Source: an uncultured virus (IMG/VR IMGVR_UViG_3300028840_003224)
Lineage: Duplodnaviria; Heunggongvirae; Uroviricota; Caudoviricetes
Virus record (IMG/VR): IMGVR_UViG_3300028840_003224
Location: 53,905-73,904 of that record
Strand: one strand, 5' to 3'
DNA: 20,000 nucleotides
Below are positions 6,523 through 19,762 of this stretch, piece by piece (within the stretch, counting starts at the first letter, position 1; the number at the start of each line of letters is the position of its first letter). Made by a program: the position numbers and the translations under genes. The notes under the pieces are model-generated. The model made no database searches. It was not told the DNA's origin and saw nothing but the letters and a program-made list of their open reading frames with translations.

Positions 6523-6551
6523 TTGACAAGGCAACATTTGTGTGATAAGAT
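6523..6551 (+). promoter_or_regulatory. Sigma70-type promoter TTGACA-N17-TAAGAT with extended TG, heading the RNA cluster
   Basis: -35 at 6523-6528; TGn then -10 at 6546-6551 in an AT-rich intergenic stretch. Confidence 0.8.
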
Positions 6552-6755
6552 TGAGTATACCTTTAACGTAAACAGAAGAACAAGGCCACCGACCGAACGG
6601 CTGTGGCAGACAACCAACCAGGAGGACAGACCAATGTTTCAGGGGCTGTAATGGCCCCATCAGAGGACGACGAGCTAGGTGCTCAGTAGTGGTGAAATTG
6701 AGATAAATGATTTACCTCATACGATAAACAACACAGCCTAGCAAGTCAACACTGT

Positions 6756-6824
6756 GGACGCTTAGCTCAGTATGTTGAGAGCGCCCCGCTTGGGGAGGTC
6801 GCTGGTTCAAATCCGACAGGTCCA
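6756..6824 (+). ncRNA. tRNA-like RNA with collapsed anticodon arm (CCCC-GCTT-GGGG)
   Basis: TA-GCTC...GAGC D arm, AGGTC variable loop, TTCAAAT T loop; acceptor-like stem extends 6751/6828; anticodon arm 12 nt instead of 17. Confidence 0.7.
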
Positions 6825-6830
6825 CAGTAT

Positions 6831-6903
6831 TCCGGGATGGCGCAGTTGGTAGCGCGGCAGATTGTTAATCTGTAGGTCACTGGTTCGAGCCCAGTTCCCG
6901 GAG
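6831..6903 (+). tRNA. trnN: tRNA-Asn(GTT), CCA not encoded
   Basis: TCCGGGA/TCCCGGA acceptor; GCAGA-TTGTTAA-TCTGT anticodon arm; ACTGG-TTCGAGC-CCAGT T arm; discriminator G. Confidence 0.95.
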
Positions 6904-6965
6904 CTTGGTGAATTCTAGACGCGAGCACCTCTCTACCGGGACGTGGTGCGAAGCACACCAATGAC

Positions 6966-7034
6966 ATGTTTGTAGCTCAGTTGGTAGAGTGCCGGTGCCA
7001 CCGGTGGTCGGGGGTTCGAGTCCCTCCAGGCATG
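6966..7034 (+). ncRNA. tRNA-like RNA with 3-nt anticodon loop (CCGGT-GCC-ACCGG)
   Basis: Canonical D arm (TAGCTCAGTTGGTAGAGT) and T arm (GGGGG-TTCGAGT-CCCTC); acceptor ATGTTTG/CAGGCAT; anticodon arm 13 nt. Confidence 0.75.
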
Positions 7035-7047
7035 CTTGAAAGAGAGT

Positions 7048-7144
7048 GCGGAGAAAGAGGCGGGCAACAGTCCGGTTTTGACCTCACTAAGGCGAAGCAG
7101 TTTTGTGAGGAAGCTGTGGACCTCGACCCTCCGCTATTGAAACA
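7048..7144 (+). ncRNA. Unknown structured RNA, copy 1 (four-way junction, kissing loops)
   Basis: Stems GCGGAG/CTCCGC, GAGG/CCTC, CGGGC/GTCCG, GTTTTG/TAAGGC, GCAGTTT/AAGCTGT; loops ACCTCAC and TGTGAGG complementary; covaries with copy 2. Confidence 0.75.
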
Positions 7145-7151
7145 GAAGGAA

Positions 7152-7252
7152 GCAAAGTGAGGAGGCGGGCAGCGGCCCGGTTTTGGCCCTCACCAGGGCG
7201 AATCAGTATTGTGAGGGTGCTGAGGACCTCCAAGATCTTTGCAATTGAAACA
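7152..7252 (+). ncRNA. Unknown structured RNA, copy 2
   Basis: Stems GCAAAG/CTTTGC, GGAGG/CCTCC, CGGGC/GCCCG, GTTTTG/CAGGGC, TCAGTAT/GTGCTGA; loops GCCCTCAC and TGTGAGG. Confidence 0.75.
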
Positions 7253-7256
7253 CCAC

Positions 7257-7354
7257 CCTGGCTGCGGGGACTCTGGGACGTCCAGGTGTGACGTCCTTGC
7301 TTGTAACTGAAGGGTTCGATCCCCATTGGGTAGGTTGCAAGCCCCGCAGCTGGG
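7257..7354 (+). ncRNA. Structured RNA with T-loop hairpin in a three-way junction
   Basis: Closing stem GCTGCGGGG/CCCCGCAGC; hairpin GGACGTC/GACGTCC; stem CTTGTAACT/GGTTGCAAG enclosing GGG-TTCGATC-CCC. Confidence 0.65.
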
Positions 7355-7374
7355 ATTTCACAACGGAGAAGACG

Positions 7375-7449
7375 ATGAACTTACTTTTACCACTGTTGAT
7401 AATCGCCGTGCTGCTGGTGGCGTGGCTAACTGGAGGTGACAACATCTGA
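7375..7449 (+). CDS. 24-aa single-helix membrane peptide (MNLLLPLLIIAVLLVAWLTGGDNI)
   Basis: GGAG RBS; TGATG coupling to next ORF; not in ORF track. Confidence 0.6.
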   Translation: MNLLLPLLIIAVLLVAWLTGGDNI

Positions 7450-7691
7450 TGCTTGACGTACTGAGCGAAGAGAAGACGAAGAACGAAGGGAACGACATCG
7501 GCCCGTTGGTGTGGGACTGCCTCGCCAGCCATACTAGCCTGCCTCGGGCCGCGTGCAAGTCCCTGATCTACTGCCTGATCTACGGCGGACCTGTGCTCAA
7601 GATCTGCCGAGACAACAAGCTGGGTATCACCGAGATCATGTTGATCCGGACCACGTTCGACGACATTATGGAAGGCCATATCGCCCTTTAA
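7449..7691 (+). CDS. 80-aa protein resembling the PolA fingers/O-helix region
   Basis: GGAGGT RBS; RAACKSLIYCLIYGG matches RxxxKxxxYxxxYG. Confidence 0.65.
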   Translation: MLDVLSEEKTKNEGNDIGPLVWDCLASHTSLPRAACKSLIYCLIYGGPVLKICRDNKLGITEIMLIRTTFDDIMEGHIAL

Positions 7692-7714
7692 CCCTTAACC
7701 ACTTGGAGACTGTC

Positions 7715-7879
7715 ATGCGAAGTAAATGGCACGAGAGACAGGAAGAGAAGAAAGCCCTCATGGAAGAGAACGCAACGGAGCGTGCGAAACGCTCAAACAA
7801 AGAGCAGCTTGAGGCTCTTGACTTCCGCCTTGGGAAAGGCGTCGGAGCGAAGAAAGAAAGGAAACGGCTGGCCGAATGA
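7715..7879 (+). CDS. Small basic phage protein (QLEALDFRLGKGVGAKKERKRL)
   Basis: GGAG RBS then ATG 7715; ATGA overlap downstream. Confidence 0.75.
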   Translation: MRSKWHERQEEKKALMEENATERAKRSNKEQLEALDFRLGKGVGAKKERKRLAE

Positions 7880-8142
7880 TCGATCTGATACTGGGCTGGG
7901 CGTTGGCAGCCACCGTCATACTGCTGCTATTGTCATGGGCCCATAGTGACATGAACCGAGAGCTGGAGAGAGCCCTACAAGGGTGGCGCAAGGCAGCGGC
8001 CCTCAAGGACGAAGCTAAGAAGGAGCGCATGAGGTCCGACAAAGAGTGCGAACGACTCAAGTTAGAGCTGTCTGTGGCGAACGCTCGCCGCATCCAAGTC
8101 CTCGACGATATGCATGAGGCCCTCGAACAGCACGAATATTAA
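7876..8142 (+). CDS. Membrane-anchored coiled-coil protein
   Basis: N-terminal hydrophobic helix, charged helical remainder. Confidence 0.7.
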   Translation: MIDLILGWALAATVILLLLSWAHSDMNRELERALQGWRKAAALKDEAKKERMRSDKECERLKLELSVANARRIQVLDDMHEALEQHEY

Positions 8143-8147
8143 ACGCT

Positions 8148-8216
8148 TGCGGATGGGCTGGTGCTCAGCCGGGCCTCATAAGCCTGGACTCGAAGGTTCA
8201 ATCCCTTCATCCGCAA
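8148..8216 (+). tRNA. tRNA with CAT anticodon (Met or Ile2), shortened D arm
   Basis: TGCGGAT/ATCCGCA acceptor; CGGGC-CTCATAA-GCCTG; GAAGG-TTCAATC-CCTTC; only 15 nt between acceptor and anticodon stems. Confidence 0.8.
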
Positions 8217-8218
8217 CT

Positions 8219-8336
8219 TGATCGGTTCTCCTCGCGGCTTGCAGTACACAAGCTGCCAACCCCTGCCAGGGGTAACTAGCGGGGAAGCGGGCTCGCGCGA
8301 GCCCACGGCATGGGGTGCAATTCCTTGGCCGATCAC
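8219..8336 (+). ncRNA. Enlarged tRNA-like RNA: acceptor plus T-like arm, tetraloop hairpin instead of anticodon arm, branched domain instead of D arm
   Basis: TGATCGGT/GCCGATCA; TGGGG-TGCAATT-CCTTG; GGGCTC-GCGC-GAGCCC; TCCTCGC/GCGGGGA enclosing two hairpins. Confidence 0.65.
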
Positions 8337-8345
8337 TTACTGAAA

Positions 8346-8458
8346 TGCACCGAGGACTCTAGACCCGTGGTCCTCTGGTTGGTGCAGTCTCGTCTGGGCT
8401 TGGGCGGCGAAGTGGTAGACCAATACCCTCACCCCGGCCCAGCGAGGCGAACGGGTAT
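8346..8458 (+). ncRNA. Candidate structured RNA, two stacked stems with possible pseudoknot
   Basis: TGCACC/GGTGCA plus GAGGAC/GTCCTC; GTCTCG/CGAGGC plus CTGGGCT/GGCCCAG; loop ACCCGT complementary to ACGGGT 8451-8456. Confidence 0.5.
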
Positions 8459-8531
8459 GCCCCGTTAGACTAATGGCCATGTCGCCACCCTTTCAAGGTG
8501 GAGGTTGCGAGTTCGAGTCTCGCACGGGGTA
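8459..8531 (+). tRNA. trnE: tRNA-Glu(TTC), CCA not encoded
   Basis: GCCCCGT/ACGGGGT; CCACC-CTTTCAA-GGTGG; GCGAG-TTCGAGT-CTCGC. Confidence 0.93.
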
Positions 8532-8533
8532 CT

Positions 8534-8610
8534 GTGGTCGTAGCTCAATTAGTTAGAGCGTCGGATTGTGATTCCGAAGGTTGTGGATGCGAGTTCCACC
8601 GGCCACCCCA
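8534..8610 (+). tRNA. trnH: tRNA-His(GTG) with atypical elbow, CCA encoded
   Basis: GTGGTCG/CGGCCAC; TCGGA-TTGTGAT-TCCGA; GTGGA-TGCGAGT-TCCAC; C73 then CCA. Confidence 0.9.
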
Positions 8611-11024: not shown

Positions 11025-11284
11025 TGATGATCAAACTGAAGACAATTACTGGGTTCTTCATCGTCAACACTAGCCACGTGACGGCGATGTCGCGGCTCAA
11101 AAACGGTGAGGAGTTCAAGTCACGCATCTACGTCAACGGCCCTGCTTGCGACAGCTGGTTCCAATCAGCCAACACGCTCGAAGAGATCTGGGACATGATG
11201 GAAGAGGAAGCCCTGCTGCAACAGCGGCTGCGACGTCCGCTCTGGAAAACAATCACCGACAGCCTGGGAATTACAAAGACATGA
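11024..11284 (+). CDS. Hypothetical protein
   Basis: GGAG RBS; TGATG and ATGA coupling. Confidence 0.7.
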   Translation: MMIKLKTITGFFIVNTSHVTAMSRLKNGEEFKSRIYVNGPACDSWFQSANTLEEIWDMMEEEALLQQRLRRPLWKTITDSLGITKT

Positions 11285-12267
11285 AACTCGAAGACATCGG
11301 CTTCTACACCCTGGAAGACTCTCGAACGGAGAGCCTCAGCATCAAAAGCCCAATGTGGCGTTGCGAGATGATCCTGACCGAGCGTTGCAACTTCAAGTGC
11401 CCGTACTGCCGTGGCCTGCGTGACGACTGCCAAGGCGATATGCCGGTCACCCGTGCTATCGAAGTGCTGGACCAGTGGTGCGCACAGGGCCTGAAGAACA
11501 TCCGCTTCTCTGGCGGCGAGCCGCTGCTCTACCCTCACCTGCACCAGCTCTGCTGTCGTGCGAAGGCTCAGGGTGTGGAGCGGATTGCTATAAGCACCAA
11601 CGGCTCGTTCCCGTACGACCGCTACCGATCCCTGATCGACGCTGGTGTCAACGACTTTAGCATCTCGTTCGACGCGTGCTGTGCTGAGGACTGCGAGACG
11701 ATGTCTGGCACTAACGAGTCCCGCATCCGCAAGTACGAACGGATCACCGAGAACATCCGCCAACTGTCCGAGCTGACCTACGTCACCGTGGGTGTCGTCC
11801 TGACCGACGACAACAAGGACGACCTCGCAGGTATCGTGGCGACGGCGTCTGAGCTTGGTGTGGCTGACATCCGGATCATCCCGGCAGCACAGGAAGGCAA
11901 CATGATCGAGGGCGTGGAGGCGATCCCGCAGCACACCCTGGACAAGCACCCGATCCTCGCTTACCGTGTGGCGAACCTGCTGGCGGGTAAGGCGGTTCGT
12001 GGCATCAAGCAAACGGACACGTCCACCTGCTCCATCGTTGTCGACGACTCGGTCGTCTGTGGCAAGTACCACTTCCCTTGCGTGATCTACATGCGGGAGC
12101 AGGGCGAGCCGATTGGTGAGGTTGGCCCTGACATGCGCAAAGATCGAGTCAGGTGGATGGTCAGGCACAACACACACGCGGACCCGATCTGCCGAAAGAA
12201 CTGCCTGGACGTATGTGTGCAGCACAACAACAAGTGTGTTGATTGCTTCGCGAGGAAACGCAAGTGA
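11281..12267 (+). CDS. Radical SAM enzyme with Cys-rich C-terminal (SPASM/twitch-like) region
   Basis: CNFKCPYC, FSGGEP, ISTNG, SISFD; C-terminal C...FPC...CRKNCLDVC. Start at ATG 11281. Confidence 0.92.
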   Translation: MKLEDIGFYTLEDSRTESLSIKSPMWRCEMILTERCNFKCPYCRGLRDDCQGDMPVTRAIEVLDQWCAQGLKNIRFSGGEPLLYPHLHQLCCRAKAQGVERIAISTNGSFPYDRYRSLIDAGVNDFSISFDACCAEDCETMSGTNESRIRKYERITENIRQLSELTYVTVGVVLTDDNKDDLAGIVATASELGVADIRIIPAAQEGNMIEGVEAIPQHTLDKHPILAYRVANLLAGKAVRGIKQTDTSTCSIVVDDSVVCGKYHFPCVIYMREQGEPIGEVGPDMRKDRVRWMVRHNTHADPICRKNCLDVCVQHNNKCVDCFARKRK

Positions 12268-18792: not shown

Positions 18793-19031
18793 CAACCCAG
18801 TATCTCATCACTTACGAGATGTTCACAAACGAATCAAAGAAGAAGAAGCCGGTATCCGACGTCGCCACCGAGCTGACATTTCTCAACCCCGTCGACTTCT
18901 ATGTGAAGAAGCTGAAGAGTAAGAAGTGGGATGGCTGCGTGATCCTCAACGTGTTCGTCCATGAAGAGGCCGACGTCACGACCCCTGGTTGCGACCAAGG
19001 GGCAGCCAGCTACACAGGGAGCGTCGAATGA
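18789..19031 (+). CDS. Hypothetical protein
   Basis: AGGAG RBS; ATGA overlaps. Confidence 0.7.
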   Translation: MTTQYLITYEMFTNESKKKKPVSDVATELTFLNPVDFYVKKLKSKKWDGCVILNVFVHEEADVTTPGCDQGAASYTGSVE

Positions 19032-19762
19032 GCAGCCCTCACATCGAACTGTTTGAGACATTGGCGACCCAGCCAGACAACCCAGAACCGACGACTGGCC
19101 TCTTGGTGGTGTCGACGCCTCGGTCTGGCTCCACCCTGTTCTGCGACGTGCTGACGAACGACGGGCAGGTGGGTATCGTAGACGAGTGGTTCAACGAGAA
19201 GCACTTTGCCGCGTGGCAAGAGGTGATGAACTATGACACCTTCAGCCTGCCAGAGTACCTGGACTTCGTCACGCGGAAGACAGCTCCCAAAGGCTGCTTC
19301 AGCCTACACGTCCACATCGGACAGCTGCTCCACATCTCCAAAGAGTATGAGTTCGCTGTCGGTGACATGGGCTTCGACCACATGGTGTGGATCTACCGCG
19401 AGGACAAGGTCCAGCAGGCTGTGTCGCTGGCCAAGGCCGTCTCTACCAATCAGTGGAAGAGCACACACGAGGCCAAGGGAGAGCCTGACCTGTCGTTCGA
19501 GAACATCGCCATGCGGCTGGCCACCATCATCGACCAAGACCAATTCTATCGACGTGTGCTGGGCGTCCACACCGACGACGCGTTCGCCTACGAGGACTTC
19601 CGGTCGCTGCCTTGCGGCTCTACCAGCCCGTGGAACAAGACGCTGCACGCACTCGGCCTCAACCCGCTGGCGTCACCACCCGTGCCGAGCACCGAGCGAC
19701 AACGAGACTTCAAGTCTCGCGAGGCCGCACGCGAGTTCCGCAACTACCTTTCTGGAGTATAA
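19028..19762 (+). CDS. Stf0-family PAPS-dependent sulfotransferase
   Basis: STPRSGSTLFC (5'-PSB loop), YREDKVQQAVS (3'-PB), QW, YEDF, RQRD. Start at ATG 19028. Confidence 0.87.
   Translation: MSSPHIELFETLATQPDNPEPTTGLLVVSTPRSGSTLFCDVLTNDGQVGIVDEWFNEKHFAAWQEVMNYDTFSLPEYLDFVTRKTAPKGCFSLHVHIGQLLHISKEYEFAVGDMGFDHMVWIYREDKVQQAVSLAKAVSTNQWKSTHEAKGEPDLSFENIAMRLATIIDQDQFYRRVLGVHTDDAFAYEDFRSLPCGSTSPWNKTLHALGLNPLASPPVPSTERQRDFKSREAAREFRNYLSGV

What the first reader, a model, noticed from the sequence alone, without database searches (positions are those of the whole stretch)
7048..7252. Tandem pair of unknown structured RNAs: four-way junction with complementary kissing loops
Seen: two diverged copies of about 95 nt (7048-7144, 7152-7252) fold the same way, and nearly all differences fall in loops or preserve pairing. 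P0 is GCGGAG/CTCCGC vs GCAAAG/CTTTGC (two compensatory pairs); P2 is CGGGC-AACA-GTCCG vs CGGGC-AGCG-GCCCG; P3 is GTTTTG/TAAGGC vs GTTTTG/CAGGGC; P4 is GCAGTTT/AAGCTGT vs TCAGTAT/GTGCTGA. Junction linkers GAA and GGA are invariant, and the P3 loop (CCTCAC) is complementary to the P4 loop (GTGAGG) in both. They sit inside a tRNA operon with no adjacent ORF to regulate. I recognise no riboswitch or ribozyme with this layout. Inference: a new phage ncRNA class; the loops could kiss within one molecule or hand-in-hand to build multimers, as phi29 pRNA does, or the RNA could be a ribozyme or protein decoy.
Basis: partly seen in the sequence, partly recalled or inferred. Interest (0 to 1): 0.9.

Follow-up and report, generated by a model that had tools for sequence, protein, structure and literature searches.

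The report
New kissing-loop cloverleaf RNA in phage
Two neighbouring copies of a previously undescribed, tRNA-sized folded RNA sit among the tRNA genes of an uncultured phage; two of its loops always match each other in related phages, which suggests the molecules clasp one another.

Summary
Window 7048-7134 and 7152-7242 (+) are two diverged copies of one RNA. It folds as a cloverleaf-like four-way junction (P1-P4, plus an outer P0 stem here). No Rfam family reaches threshold, and tRNA models and ARAGORN do not call it.

A covariance model built only from the two copies found single-copy homologs in two related uncultured phages, each within 5 nt downstream of tRNA-Asn. A third, divergent one was found by eye.

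On the four-sequence alignment, 97.7% of cells pair and 19 of 34 pairs change on both sides (2-4 when partners are slid). The P3-loop/P4-loop pairing was not in the search model. It covaries as CCUCAC/GUGAGG, CUGCUA/UAGCAG and CUGCAA/UUGCAG.

This is a real, new, rare phage RNA family: 5 copies in 4 lineages.

Best reading (inferred, about 0.5): it is cut from the tRNA transcript and self-associates in trans. A 3-nt P3-P4 linker cannot span a coaxial P3-kiss-P4 helix. The precedents are ROOL, GOLLD and manA RNAs.

Function, expression and oligomeric state are untested. No RNA run was listed.

The parts
7048..7134 (+). Copy 1 of the RNA (87 nt core): P0, internal loop, P1, P2, P3, GAA, P4, GGA.
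   Evidence: Sequence read. Scores 97.5 bits with R1 and 81.9 bits with R2. The cloverleaf evaluates to -28.6 kcal/mol.
7152..7242 (+). Copy 2 of the RNA (91 nt core), same architecture.
   Evidence: Sequence read. Scores 109.4 bits with R1 and 84.2 bits with R2. Its MFE is close to the cloverleaf.
7082..7087 (+). Copy 1 P3-loop motif CCTCAC (L3).
   Evidence: Complementary to 7105-7110. These are columns 47-52 of A4, which pair with columns 70-75: 100% of cells paired and 4 of 6 pairs changed on both sides.
7105..7110 (+). Copy 1 P4-loop motif GTGAGG (L4).
   Evidence: The duplex with L3 is -8.0 kcal/mol.
7188..7193 (+). Copy 2 P3-loop motif CCTCAC (L3).
7211..7216 (+). Copy 2 P4-loop motif GTGAGG (L4).
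7135..7144 (+). Conserved single-stranded tail TATTGAAACA after copy 1. It may be a processing site (inference).
   Evidence: Repeat family D5, 92% identity, spacing 108. Homologs have A/C/U-rich tails UAAC.. or UUAC...
7243..7252 (+). Conserved tail AATTGAAACA after copy 2.
6831..6904 (+). tRNA-Asn(GTT). In three homologous phages the RNA starts 2-5 nt after this tRNA.
6966..7035 (+). tRNA-Gly(GCC), 12 nt upstream of copy 1, on the same strand.
6523..6551 (+). Promoter-like site TTGACA-17-TAAGAT upstream of the tRNA/RNA array. It is a consensus match only.
   Evidence: 10 of 12 positions match. 5 sites were found in the region against 0.9 expected.

Best explanation
These are two paralogous genes for a small (about 75-90 nt) structured RNA of a family not described before. 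The family is confined, so far, to a clade of uncultured roughly 100-kb phages that encode a family A DNA polymerase.

The RNA lies on the tRNA strand inside the phage tRNA array. I infer that it is co-transcribed with the tRNAs and released by the host tRNA-processing nucleases. The upstream tRNA genes encode no CCA, so the cut after their discriminator base would create the RNA's 5' end.

It folds as a cloverleaf-like four-way junction of P1, P2, P3 and P4. The connectors are 0, 0, 3 and 3 nt. This phage adds an extra outer stem, P0.

The P3 and P4 loops are classical 6-8-nt kissing loops, and they carry 5-6 (up to 7) mutually complementary bases.

I infer that this pairing forms between molecules, not within one. 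Short loops that are paired throughout stack the loop-loop helix coaxially on both stems, giving a rod of about 19 bp. The 3-nt P3-P4 linker cannot span such a rod. Two reciprocal kisses (L3-L4' and L4-L3') would give a closed symmetric dimer. Head-to-tail kisses would give chains or rings.

The tandem gene pair in this phage, with identical loops, would then encode a covalently linked pair.

Shown here: the family, the fold, the strand and the loop-loop covariation. Inferred: the processing, the trans pairing and any role in infection.
For: Family and homologs:
- A model (R1) built only from the two window copies finds L014 12401-12488 at 30.7 bits, E 2.5e-5, in 1.37 Mb.
- R1 also finds L107 9588-9672 at 25.6 bits, E 4.4e-4, in 0.65 Mb.
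- Both hits lie on the tRNA strand, 2-5 nt after tRNA-Asn, about 1.7 kb downstream of a polymerase that is 70-72% identical to the window's.
- L010 holds a divergent copy at the same place. It has the same 5' start, L3, junction and 3' end as L107, plus a roughly 50-nt insertion in P2. R2 gives it only 11.9 bits.

Fold:
- On A4, 97.7% of 133 cells pair.
- 19 of 34 pairs change on both sides, against 2-4 when partners are slid by 1-3 columns. 0 of 500 shuffles reach the observed value on any measure.
- RNAalifold returns the same cloverleaf.
- Single-sequence MFE gives the four-way layout for L014 and L107, nearly so for L010, and with a different P3 for copy 2.

Strand: U-G pairs kept in all four sequences (columns 40-57) would be A-C mismatches on the other strand.

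Loop-loop pairing:
- It was not part of the model.
- 100% of its cells pair, and 4 of 6 pairs change on both sides: CCUCAC/GUGAGG, CUGCUA/UAGCAG, CUGCAA/UUGCAG. L010 has CUGCA/UGCAG.

Trans pairing:
- In L107 both loops are 6 nt and fully complementary.
- J3/4 is 3 nt in 4 of 5 copies.
- Between the two paralogs the loop motifs have 0 of 12 changes, against 12 of 56 in stems and 12 of 23 in other unpaired positions.

Precedent (passages read):
- ROOL and GOLLD are phage RNAs 'often near tRNA islands'. Kissing loops first seen in them by covariation as tertiary contacts proved to be intermolecular bridges (bioRxiv 10.1101/2024.12.08.627333).
- manA RNAs under 200 nt build cages through intermolecular kissing loops (bioRxiv 10.64898/2026.07.01.735769).
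Against: - Only 5 copies in 4 lineages are known, and the two window copies are paralogs. That is too few for a formal covariation test.
- A4 was fitted to the nested structure, which favours the nested helices.
- There is no expression or end-mapping data.
- The steric argument rests on known kissing-complex geometry, not on a model of this RNA. Partial or distorted intramolecular contacts are not excluded.
- The excess conservation of the loops between the paralogs is weak: 0 of 12 against 12 of 56 in stems.
- Copy 1's MFE prefers the alternative CCUCAC:GUGAGG hairpin.
- In three lineages an ORF with a Shine-Dalgarno site starts about 20-45 nt after the RNA, which also fits a leader element.
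- The family is absent after tRNA-Asn in most related loci I printed. It was present in 2 of 14 and 1 of 10.
Confidence: 0.5

Rival explanations
1. The RNA is a compact monomer. L3 and L4 pair within one molecule as a tertiary pseudoknot that locks P3 against P4. The folded RNA then binds a ligand or a protein, as a riboswitch-like aptamer, a decoy for a tRNA-binding factor or a sponge.
For: The same covariation fits this reading. The RNA is tRNA-sized with a 7-bp P1 in L107 and L010. It sits in a tRNA array. Side-by-side helices joined by loop-loop contacts exist in purine and lysine riboswitches (recalled).
Against: - The loops of 6-8 nt are paired almost throughout.
- The stems are 5-7 bp without bends, and the linker is 3 nt. 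From recall, I know no solved case of a 5-6-bp kiss under those constraints.
- Junction nucleotides are not strongly conserved (GAA/AAA/GAG and GGA/UGA), which is unlike a ligand pocket.
Confidence: 0.2
2. The RNA is a cis-acting leader or conformational switch. The P3 plus P4 state alternates with the L3:L4 hairpin and controls the downstream ORF or processing of the transcript.
For: - Copy 1's MFE adopts the L3:L4 hairpin.
- In L107, L014 and L010 an ORF with a Shine-Dalgarno site begins about 20-45 nt after the RNA.
- manA was first proposed to be cis-regulatory.
Against: - The downstream genes differ in all four lineages: a 190-aa exonuclease-like protein (named from my reading of its N-terminal motif; no family search was run), 60-aa, 78-aa and 24-aa ORFs.
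- In the window a second copy and another structured element follow instead of an ORF.
- No terminator-like site lies nearby, and I saw no pairing that would sequester the ribosome-binding site.
- P3 and P4 (13 bp) outweigh the 6-bp alternative, and both states covary.
- The constant neighbour is the upstream tRNA-Asn.
Confidence: 0.1
3. The RNA is a degenerate tRNA-derived element kept only as a processing signal, that is, tRNA-like punctuation for RNase P or RNase Z in the polycistronic transcript.
For: It has a cloverleaf layout and tRNA size, and it is placed between a tRNA and the next gene. The same array holds other odd tRNA-like elements at 6756-6824 and 7253-7356.
Against: - No tRNA-model match appears even at E up to 10 in a 341-nt search, and ARAGORN makes no call.
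- The connectors are 0/0/3/3, not 2/1/4-5/0.
- There are no D-loop or T-loop signatures.
- A processing signal does not explain the strictly maintained L3:L4 complementarity.
Confidence: 0.1
4. The RNA is a small self-cleaving ribozyme of a new class.
For: It has a multi-stem junction with a loop-loop tertiary contact, as in many hammerheads. It comes from a phage or metagenomic setting where such ribozymes are common (recalled).
Against: - No Rfam ribozyme family matches at E up to 10.
- The hammerhead CUGANGA core is absent from copy 1, which has CUGUGGA.
- The few invariant unpaired nucleotides do not form an obvious catalytic core.
Confidence: 0.05

Closest known systems
ROOL and GOLLD RNAs
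   Same: They are encoded by phages and prophages, often near tRNA islands, and their function is unknown. They contain covarying kissing loops that proved to be intermolecular bridges in homo-oligomers (passages of bioRxiv 10.1101/2024.12.08.627333).
   Different: They are 500-800 nt and ornate, against 75-90 nt here. There is no sequence or secondary-structure likeness, and no Rfam match. Oligomerisation of the present RNA is untested.
manA RNA motif (RF01745)
   Same: It is a short (<200 nt) RNA linked to phages. Its loops form intermolecular kissing contacts that build pentamers and cages (abstract, outline and passages of bioRxiv 10.64898/2026.07.01.735769).
   Different: There is no Rfam match here. 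The fold differs. manA lies in 5' UTRs, whereas this RNA follows a tRNA.
phi29 pRNA
   Different: pRNA belongs to small phages with protein-primed replication and is part of the packaging motor. This phage is about 100 kb with a family A polymerase. The location, fold and length of pairing differ, and there is no Rfam match.
tRNA
   Same: It has a four-arm cloverleaf of 73-91 nt. P1 is 7 bp in L107 and L010. It has the same strand and transcription unit as the tRNAs.
   Different: The tRNA model and ARAGORN are negative. The connector lengths differ. There is no D-loop or T-loop signature and no anticodon loop logic. The arms placed like the anticodon and T arms carry mutually complementary loops.
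T4 species 1 and species 2 stable RNAs (recalled, not checked here)
   Same: They are small stable RNAs of unknown function encoded within a phage tRNA cluster and processed with the tRNAs.
   Different: I made no sequence or structure comparison. Two searches brought no text on them.
IMES-5 RNA (RF02995)
   Same: It is the only Rfam family with a weak match (24.4 bits). Its 3' domain is also a stem enclosing three hairpins, and the model aligns CCCUCAC with GUGAGGG as a stem.
   Different: The gathering score is 96.1. The match straddles copy 1 and copy 2. No match appears in L095 (the L014 RNA), L107 or L010 at E up to 5.

Membership tests
tRNA (RF00005) | Scores at least 29 bits with the Rfam tRNA model, or is called by a tRNA finder. 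| tested here: not met
   There is no tRNA match on 7048-7252 at gathering, or at E up to 10 in 2.1-kb and 341-nt searches. ARAGORN tRNAs, none of them here.
tRNA (RF00005) | Cloverleaf with connectors 2/1/4-5/0 and conserved D-loop GG and T-loop TTCRA. | tested here: not met
   The connectors are 0/0/3/3. The P4 loop is TGTGAGG, TTAGCAG or TTGCAG, and the P2 loop is AACA, AGCG and so on.
IMES-5 (RF02995) | Rfam gathering score of 96.1 bits. | tested here: not met
   The score is 24.4 bits. No homolog matches.
phi29-type pRNA | Match to the Rfam pRNA model. | tested here: not met
   No such match appears at E up to 10.
phi29-type pRNA | Encoded by a small phi29-like phage with protein-primed replication, as part of its packaging motor. 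| tested here: not met
   The virus record is 73.9 kb, with a near-identical contig of 101.6 kb. The polymerase is family A. The motor role cannot be tested here.
phi29-type pRNA | Two loops complementary in trans that covary among relatives. | tested here: inconclusive
   Complementarity and covariation are met. Whether the pairing is in trans is not testable with these tools.
Known self-cleaving ribozymes (hammerhead, twister, twister-sister, pistol, hatchet, HDV-like) | Match to the family model, or the conserved catalytic core. | tested here: not met
   No match appears at E up to 10. Copy 1 has CUGUGGA where a hammerhead needs CUGANGA.
ROOL / GOLLD / manA (self-assembling phage RNAs) | Match to the Rfam family model. 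| tested here: not met
   There are no matches.
ROOL / GOLLD / manA (self-assembling phage RNAs) | Homo-oligomer held by intermolecular kissing loops. | not testable with these tools
   This needs native gels, SEC-MALS or cryo-EM. Only the covarying loop complementarity is shown here.
Riboswitch or cis-regulatory leader | Conserved association with a downstream gene class and an expression platform. | tested here: not met
   The downstream ORFs differ in all four lineages. No terminator-like site follows the RNA.

The most novel reading that the evidence does not exclude
A tRNA-sized cloverleaf is the smallest natural building block yet seen for RNA-only self-assembly. Two covarying kissing loops on adjacent arms join molecules into closed dimers, rings or filaments. 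In this phage a gene duplication hard-wires two units in tandem. Made from the tRNA operon during infection, the assembly would act on the tRNA world of the cell, for instance by sequestering a host tRNA-processing or tRNA-targeting defence factor.
Probability: 0.35. Interest if true: 0.85.

Novelty: categorically new. Interest (0 to 1): 0.72.

Why it matters
Phage tRNA islands have long been known to hold stable RNAs of unknown purpose. The large ones, ROOL and GOLLD, were recently shown to be self-assembling RNA cages.

If this roughly 80-nt RNA also self-associates through its two matching loops, it would be a minimal natural module for RNA quaternary structure. It is small enough for complete mutational, structural and design work.

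It would also show that covarying 'pseudoknots' in small RNAs can be intermolecular. Even without that, it adds a well-supported new RNA class tied to phage tRNA-Asn genes.

The class is rare: 4 lineages among about 160 related loci searched. That limits its reach, but it shows how such RNAs escape family-based annotation.

Tried and rejected
Searches for further family members that found none:
- blastn 'distant' of 6700-7400 against 50,697 phage records. All 40 listed rows cover only the tRNA parts, query positions 63-336; 59 rows were not listed.
- Five DNA patterns over IMG/VR. They returned 1, 3, 16, 56 and 6 loci. Apart from the window's near-identical contig and the contigs of L014 and L010, all were judged to be chance.
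  - L003 and L005 are simple hairpins.
  - L188, L203 and L206 lie inside a coding region with what I read as a methyltransferase-like motif.
  - The rest lack loop complementarity or P4.
All 120 loci scored at most 22 bits with R2, although they were pre-selected to match P2-P3, and the three alignments printed (one from genome contigs) delete or break P4. True members score 72-84 bits.
- R2 over 2.0 Mb of related loci found no new member. L041, at 21 bits with 73% GC and many mismatches, was rejected.
- The metagenome search kept only the best 80 of 274 relatives.

Tools that did not help:
- The genome search with R1 on 50 virus records found nothing. It missed even the record that holds L014, so it is uninformative.
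- My own structure-only descriptor (kissing 6-mer plus four stems) gave 28 hits against 11 and 5 in two shuffles. With 5-mers it gave 50 against 35 and 31. Only the known members share the sequence signature.
- MAFFT could not align L010 because of its insertion, so L010 is described by hand.
- Tandem Repeats Finder did not report the pair.

Other negative results:
- The whole own genome, searched with filters off, holds only the two copies. The next best hit is 12.2 bits.
- No RNA holder was listed for the sequence.
- The earlier-findings look-up returned nothing.
- Literature: three full-text searches listed no paper describing a tRNA-adjacent small kissing-loop cloverleaf in phages. PMC2330249 has no passage on T4 stable RNAs.

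Ideas considered and dropped:
- Protein coding: the indels between the copies are 1, 1 and 2 nt, and the changes are compensatory.
- Minus-strand RNA: folding is weaker (z -1.9 and -2.0), and the conserved U-G pairs would be mismatches.
- An anti-Shine-Dalgarno role for CCUCAC: the loop sequences differ completely in the homologs.
- A type III antitoxin repeat array: the unit is about 105 nt and is single-copy in the relatives.

Full report
**Setting.** The window is the last 20 kb of a 73.9-kb virus record with 55.9% G+C. A near-identical 101.6-kb viral contig carries the same region.
- The window encodes a family A DNA polymerase, a radical SAM protein, a DNA ligase, a nucleotidase and a sulphotransferase.
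- No cultured phage is close. tblastn of the polymerase against 50,697 phage records gives only matches below 60% identity that cover a third of the protein or less.
- Metagenomes hold hundreds of relatives. 513 proteins reach E <= 1e-20, and the 120 listed are 55-100% identical.
- On the + strand, 6756-8610 is a tRNA array. ARAGORN calls Asn, Gly, Met, Glu and His, and Rfam adds a weak tRNA match at 6756-6824.
- A promoter-like site lies upstream at 6523-6551.

**The observation.**
- The cores are 7048-7134 and 7152-7242. They align with 67 of 91 columns invariant, and each carries the tail (T/A)ATTGAAACA.
- The architecture is P0, an internal loop, then P1 enclosing three hairpins P2, P3 and P4. 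The connectors are 0, 0, 3 (GAA) and 3 (GGA) nt.
- The P3 loop holds CCTCAC and the P4 loop holds GTGAGG in both copies.
- Single-sequence folding is only moderately unusual (z -2.7 and -2.6). Copy 1's minimum-energy fold uses the CCUCAC:GUGAGG hairpin at -34.3 kcal/mol, against -28.6 for the cloverleaf.
- The window alone therefore does not prove the fold.

**Known families.**
- At gathering thresholds Rfam 15 reports only tRNAs in the window.
- With permissive thresholds, the only match on the element is IMES-5 at 24.4 bits against a gathering score of 96.1. It straddles the two copies and is absent from the homologs.
- tRNA, ribozyme, riboswitch, pRNA, manA, ROOL and GOLLD models give nothing at E up to 10.

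**Homologs.** I built a covariance model (R1) from the two copies alone and searched DNA around polymerase relatives. That was 79 viral loci and 79 metagenome loci.
- Two further lineages matched: L014 12401-12488 (30.7 bits) and L107 9588-9672 (25.6 bits).
- Both are single copies on the tRNA strand and start 2-5 nt after tRNA-Asn.
- A third phage, L010, has at the same position an RNA with the same 5' start, P3 loop, junction and 3' end as L107, plus a roughly 50-nt insertion in P2. The second model aligns it end to end at only 11.9 bits, so I count it as a probable divergent member.
- Among the loci with a tRNA whose downstream sequence I printed, the RNA follows it in 2 of 14 and 1 of 10.
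- Other relatives have an ORF or odd T-arm-bearing elements there.
- Further pattern scans, a second model (R2), a structure-only descriptor and a filter-free search of the whole own genome found no more members.
- The family is rare: 5 copies in 4 lineages.

**Covariation.** On the four-sequence alignment A4, 97.7% of 133 cells are standard pairs and 19 of 34 pairs show changes on both sides. Sliding the partners by 1-3 columns leaves 38-46% of cells paired and 2-4 such pairs. None of 500 column shuffles reaches the observed values.

| Helix | Pairs changed on both sides | Cells paired |
|---|---|---|
| P0 | 4 of 6 | 91.7% |
| P1 | 3 of 4 | 100% |
| P2 | 0 of 5 (nearly invariant) | 100% |
| P3 | 2 of 6 | 95.8% |
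| P4 | 6 of 7 | 100% |
| L3:L4 | 4 of 6 | 100% |

- The alignment was fitted to the nested helices, which favours them.
- The loop-loop helix was not in the model, so its support is independent. Its sequences are CCUCAC/GUGAGG, CUGCUA/UAGCAG and CUGCAA/UUGCAG, with CUGCA/UGCAG in L010.
- RNAalifold returns the same cloverleaf.
- MFE folding alone gives the four-way layout for L014 and L107, nearly so for L010, and with a different P3 for copy 2.
- In L014, L107 and L010 the closing helix is continuous at 9, 7 and 7 bp. The internal loop plus P0 is a peculiarity of the window's copies.
- Conserved U-G pairs fix the strand.
- The linkers vary: GAA, AAA and GAG for J3/4, and GGA and UGA for J4/1.

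**How it most likely works.** The RNA is real, structured and tied to the tRNA transcript. The constant neighbour is the upstream tRNA, while the downstream gene differs in all four lineages. This argues against a dedicated leader and for an RNA processed together with the tRNAs.

The adjacent tRNA genes encode no CCA, so endonucleolytic 3' maturation of the tRNA would create the RNA's 5' end. This step is inferred.

Because both P3/P4 and L3:L4 covary, the loops pair while the stems exist.
- The loops are 6-8 nt with 5-6 (7) of them paired. In L107 both loops are 6 nt and fully complementary.
- From established knowledge of kissing complexes such as TAR-TAR*, ColE1 RNA I/II and the HIV DIS, such loops stack the loop-loop helix coaxially on both stems.
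- That places the stem bases about 19 bp apart, and a 3-nt linker cannot bridge this.
- I therefore favour pairing in trans. Reciprocal kisses would give a closed symmetric dimer if P3 and P4 lie side by side. Chains or rings would form if they are coaxial.
- The tandem copies, whose 12 loop positions are unchanged while 12 of 56 stem and 12 of 23 other positions differ, would form a linked pair. That statistic is weak.

Precedents (passages read):
- ROOL and GOLLD are phage RNAs often near tRNA islands. Covariation-detected kissing loops in them proved to be intermolecular.
- manA RNAs under 200 nt assemble by intermolecular kissing loops.

The biological role is unknown. A link to tRNA processing or to defence systems that target tRNAs is speculation.

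**Rivals.**
- An intramolecular tertiary kiss in a ligand- or protein-binding monomer (0.2).
- A leader or switch (0.1).
- A tRNA-derived processing signal (0.1).
- A ribozyme (0.05).

The evidence for and against each, and what would refute it, is given in the Rival explanations section.

**Limits.**
- Only four lineages are known.
- There is no RNA data. No RNA holder was listed.
- The T4 stable RNAs, pRNA covariation and kissing-complex geometry are recalled, not checked here.
- Supplements of the bioRxiv papers were not seen.

**Verdict.** This is a new, rare class of small structured phage RNA with a covarying loop-loop pairing. It probably self-associates. Interest 0.72.

Noticed in passing
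window 7253-7356 (+): Directly after copy 2 lies a strongly folded element (-51.4 kcal/mol, z -3.46, 0 of 200 shuffles as good). It has a long closing stem and an inner hairpin GGGTTCGATCCCC that looks like a tRNA T arm. Neither ARAGORN nor Rfam calls it a tRNA. There is a weak CRISPR-DR2 match of 19 bits against a gathering score of 37.
   Followed up: partly
L108 11799-11880, L118 5258-5350, L136 5314-5440: In other relatives the slot after tRNA-Asn holds odd elements with a T-arm-like GGTTCRA hairpin inside long closing stems. ARAGORN does not call them as standard tRNAs there. The slot behind tRNA-Asn appears to be a variable small-RNA site.
   Followed up: no
window 6756-6824 (+): Rfam tRNA matches at 32.8 bits, just above threshold, but ARAGORN makes no call. 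By my reading the anticodon arm is a CCCC-GCTT-GGGG tetraloop hairpin, so this may be an anticodon-less tRNA-like RNA. The near-identical contig has one substitution in that loop.
   Followed up: no
window 6905-6965 (+): The spacer between tRNA-Asn and tRNA-Gly can form a hairpin (TTGGTG...CACCAA). It contains GCGAAGCA, the same string as the P3 end (GC), J3/4 (GAA) and P4 start (GCA) of copy 1. It may be a remnant of a third copy.
   Followed up: no
window 7157-7162 (+): Copy 2 carries a third GTGAGG in its P0/P1 internal loop, also complementary to the P3 loop. Copy 1 has GAGAAA there.
   Followed up: no
L024 and L025 144-491: Two related phage contigs encode a tmRNA with tag AKPLFATAA, next to tRNA-Thr and tRNA-Asn.
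   Followed up: no
window 7375-7449 (+): A 24-aa hydrophobic ORF (MNLLLPLLIIAVLLVAWLTGGDNI) with a GGAGA ribosome-binding site follows the RNA elements. Its stop overlaps the start of the next ORF.
   Followed up: no
window 11146-12267 and 18989-19762 (+): The phage encodes a radical SAM protein and an Stf0-type sulphotransferase, which are unusual auxiliary genes.
   Followed up: no
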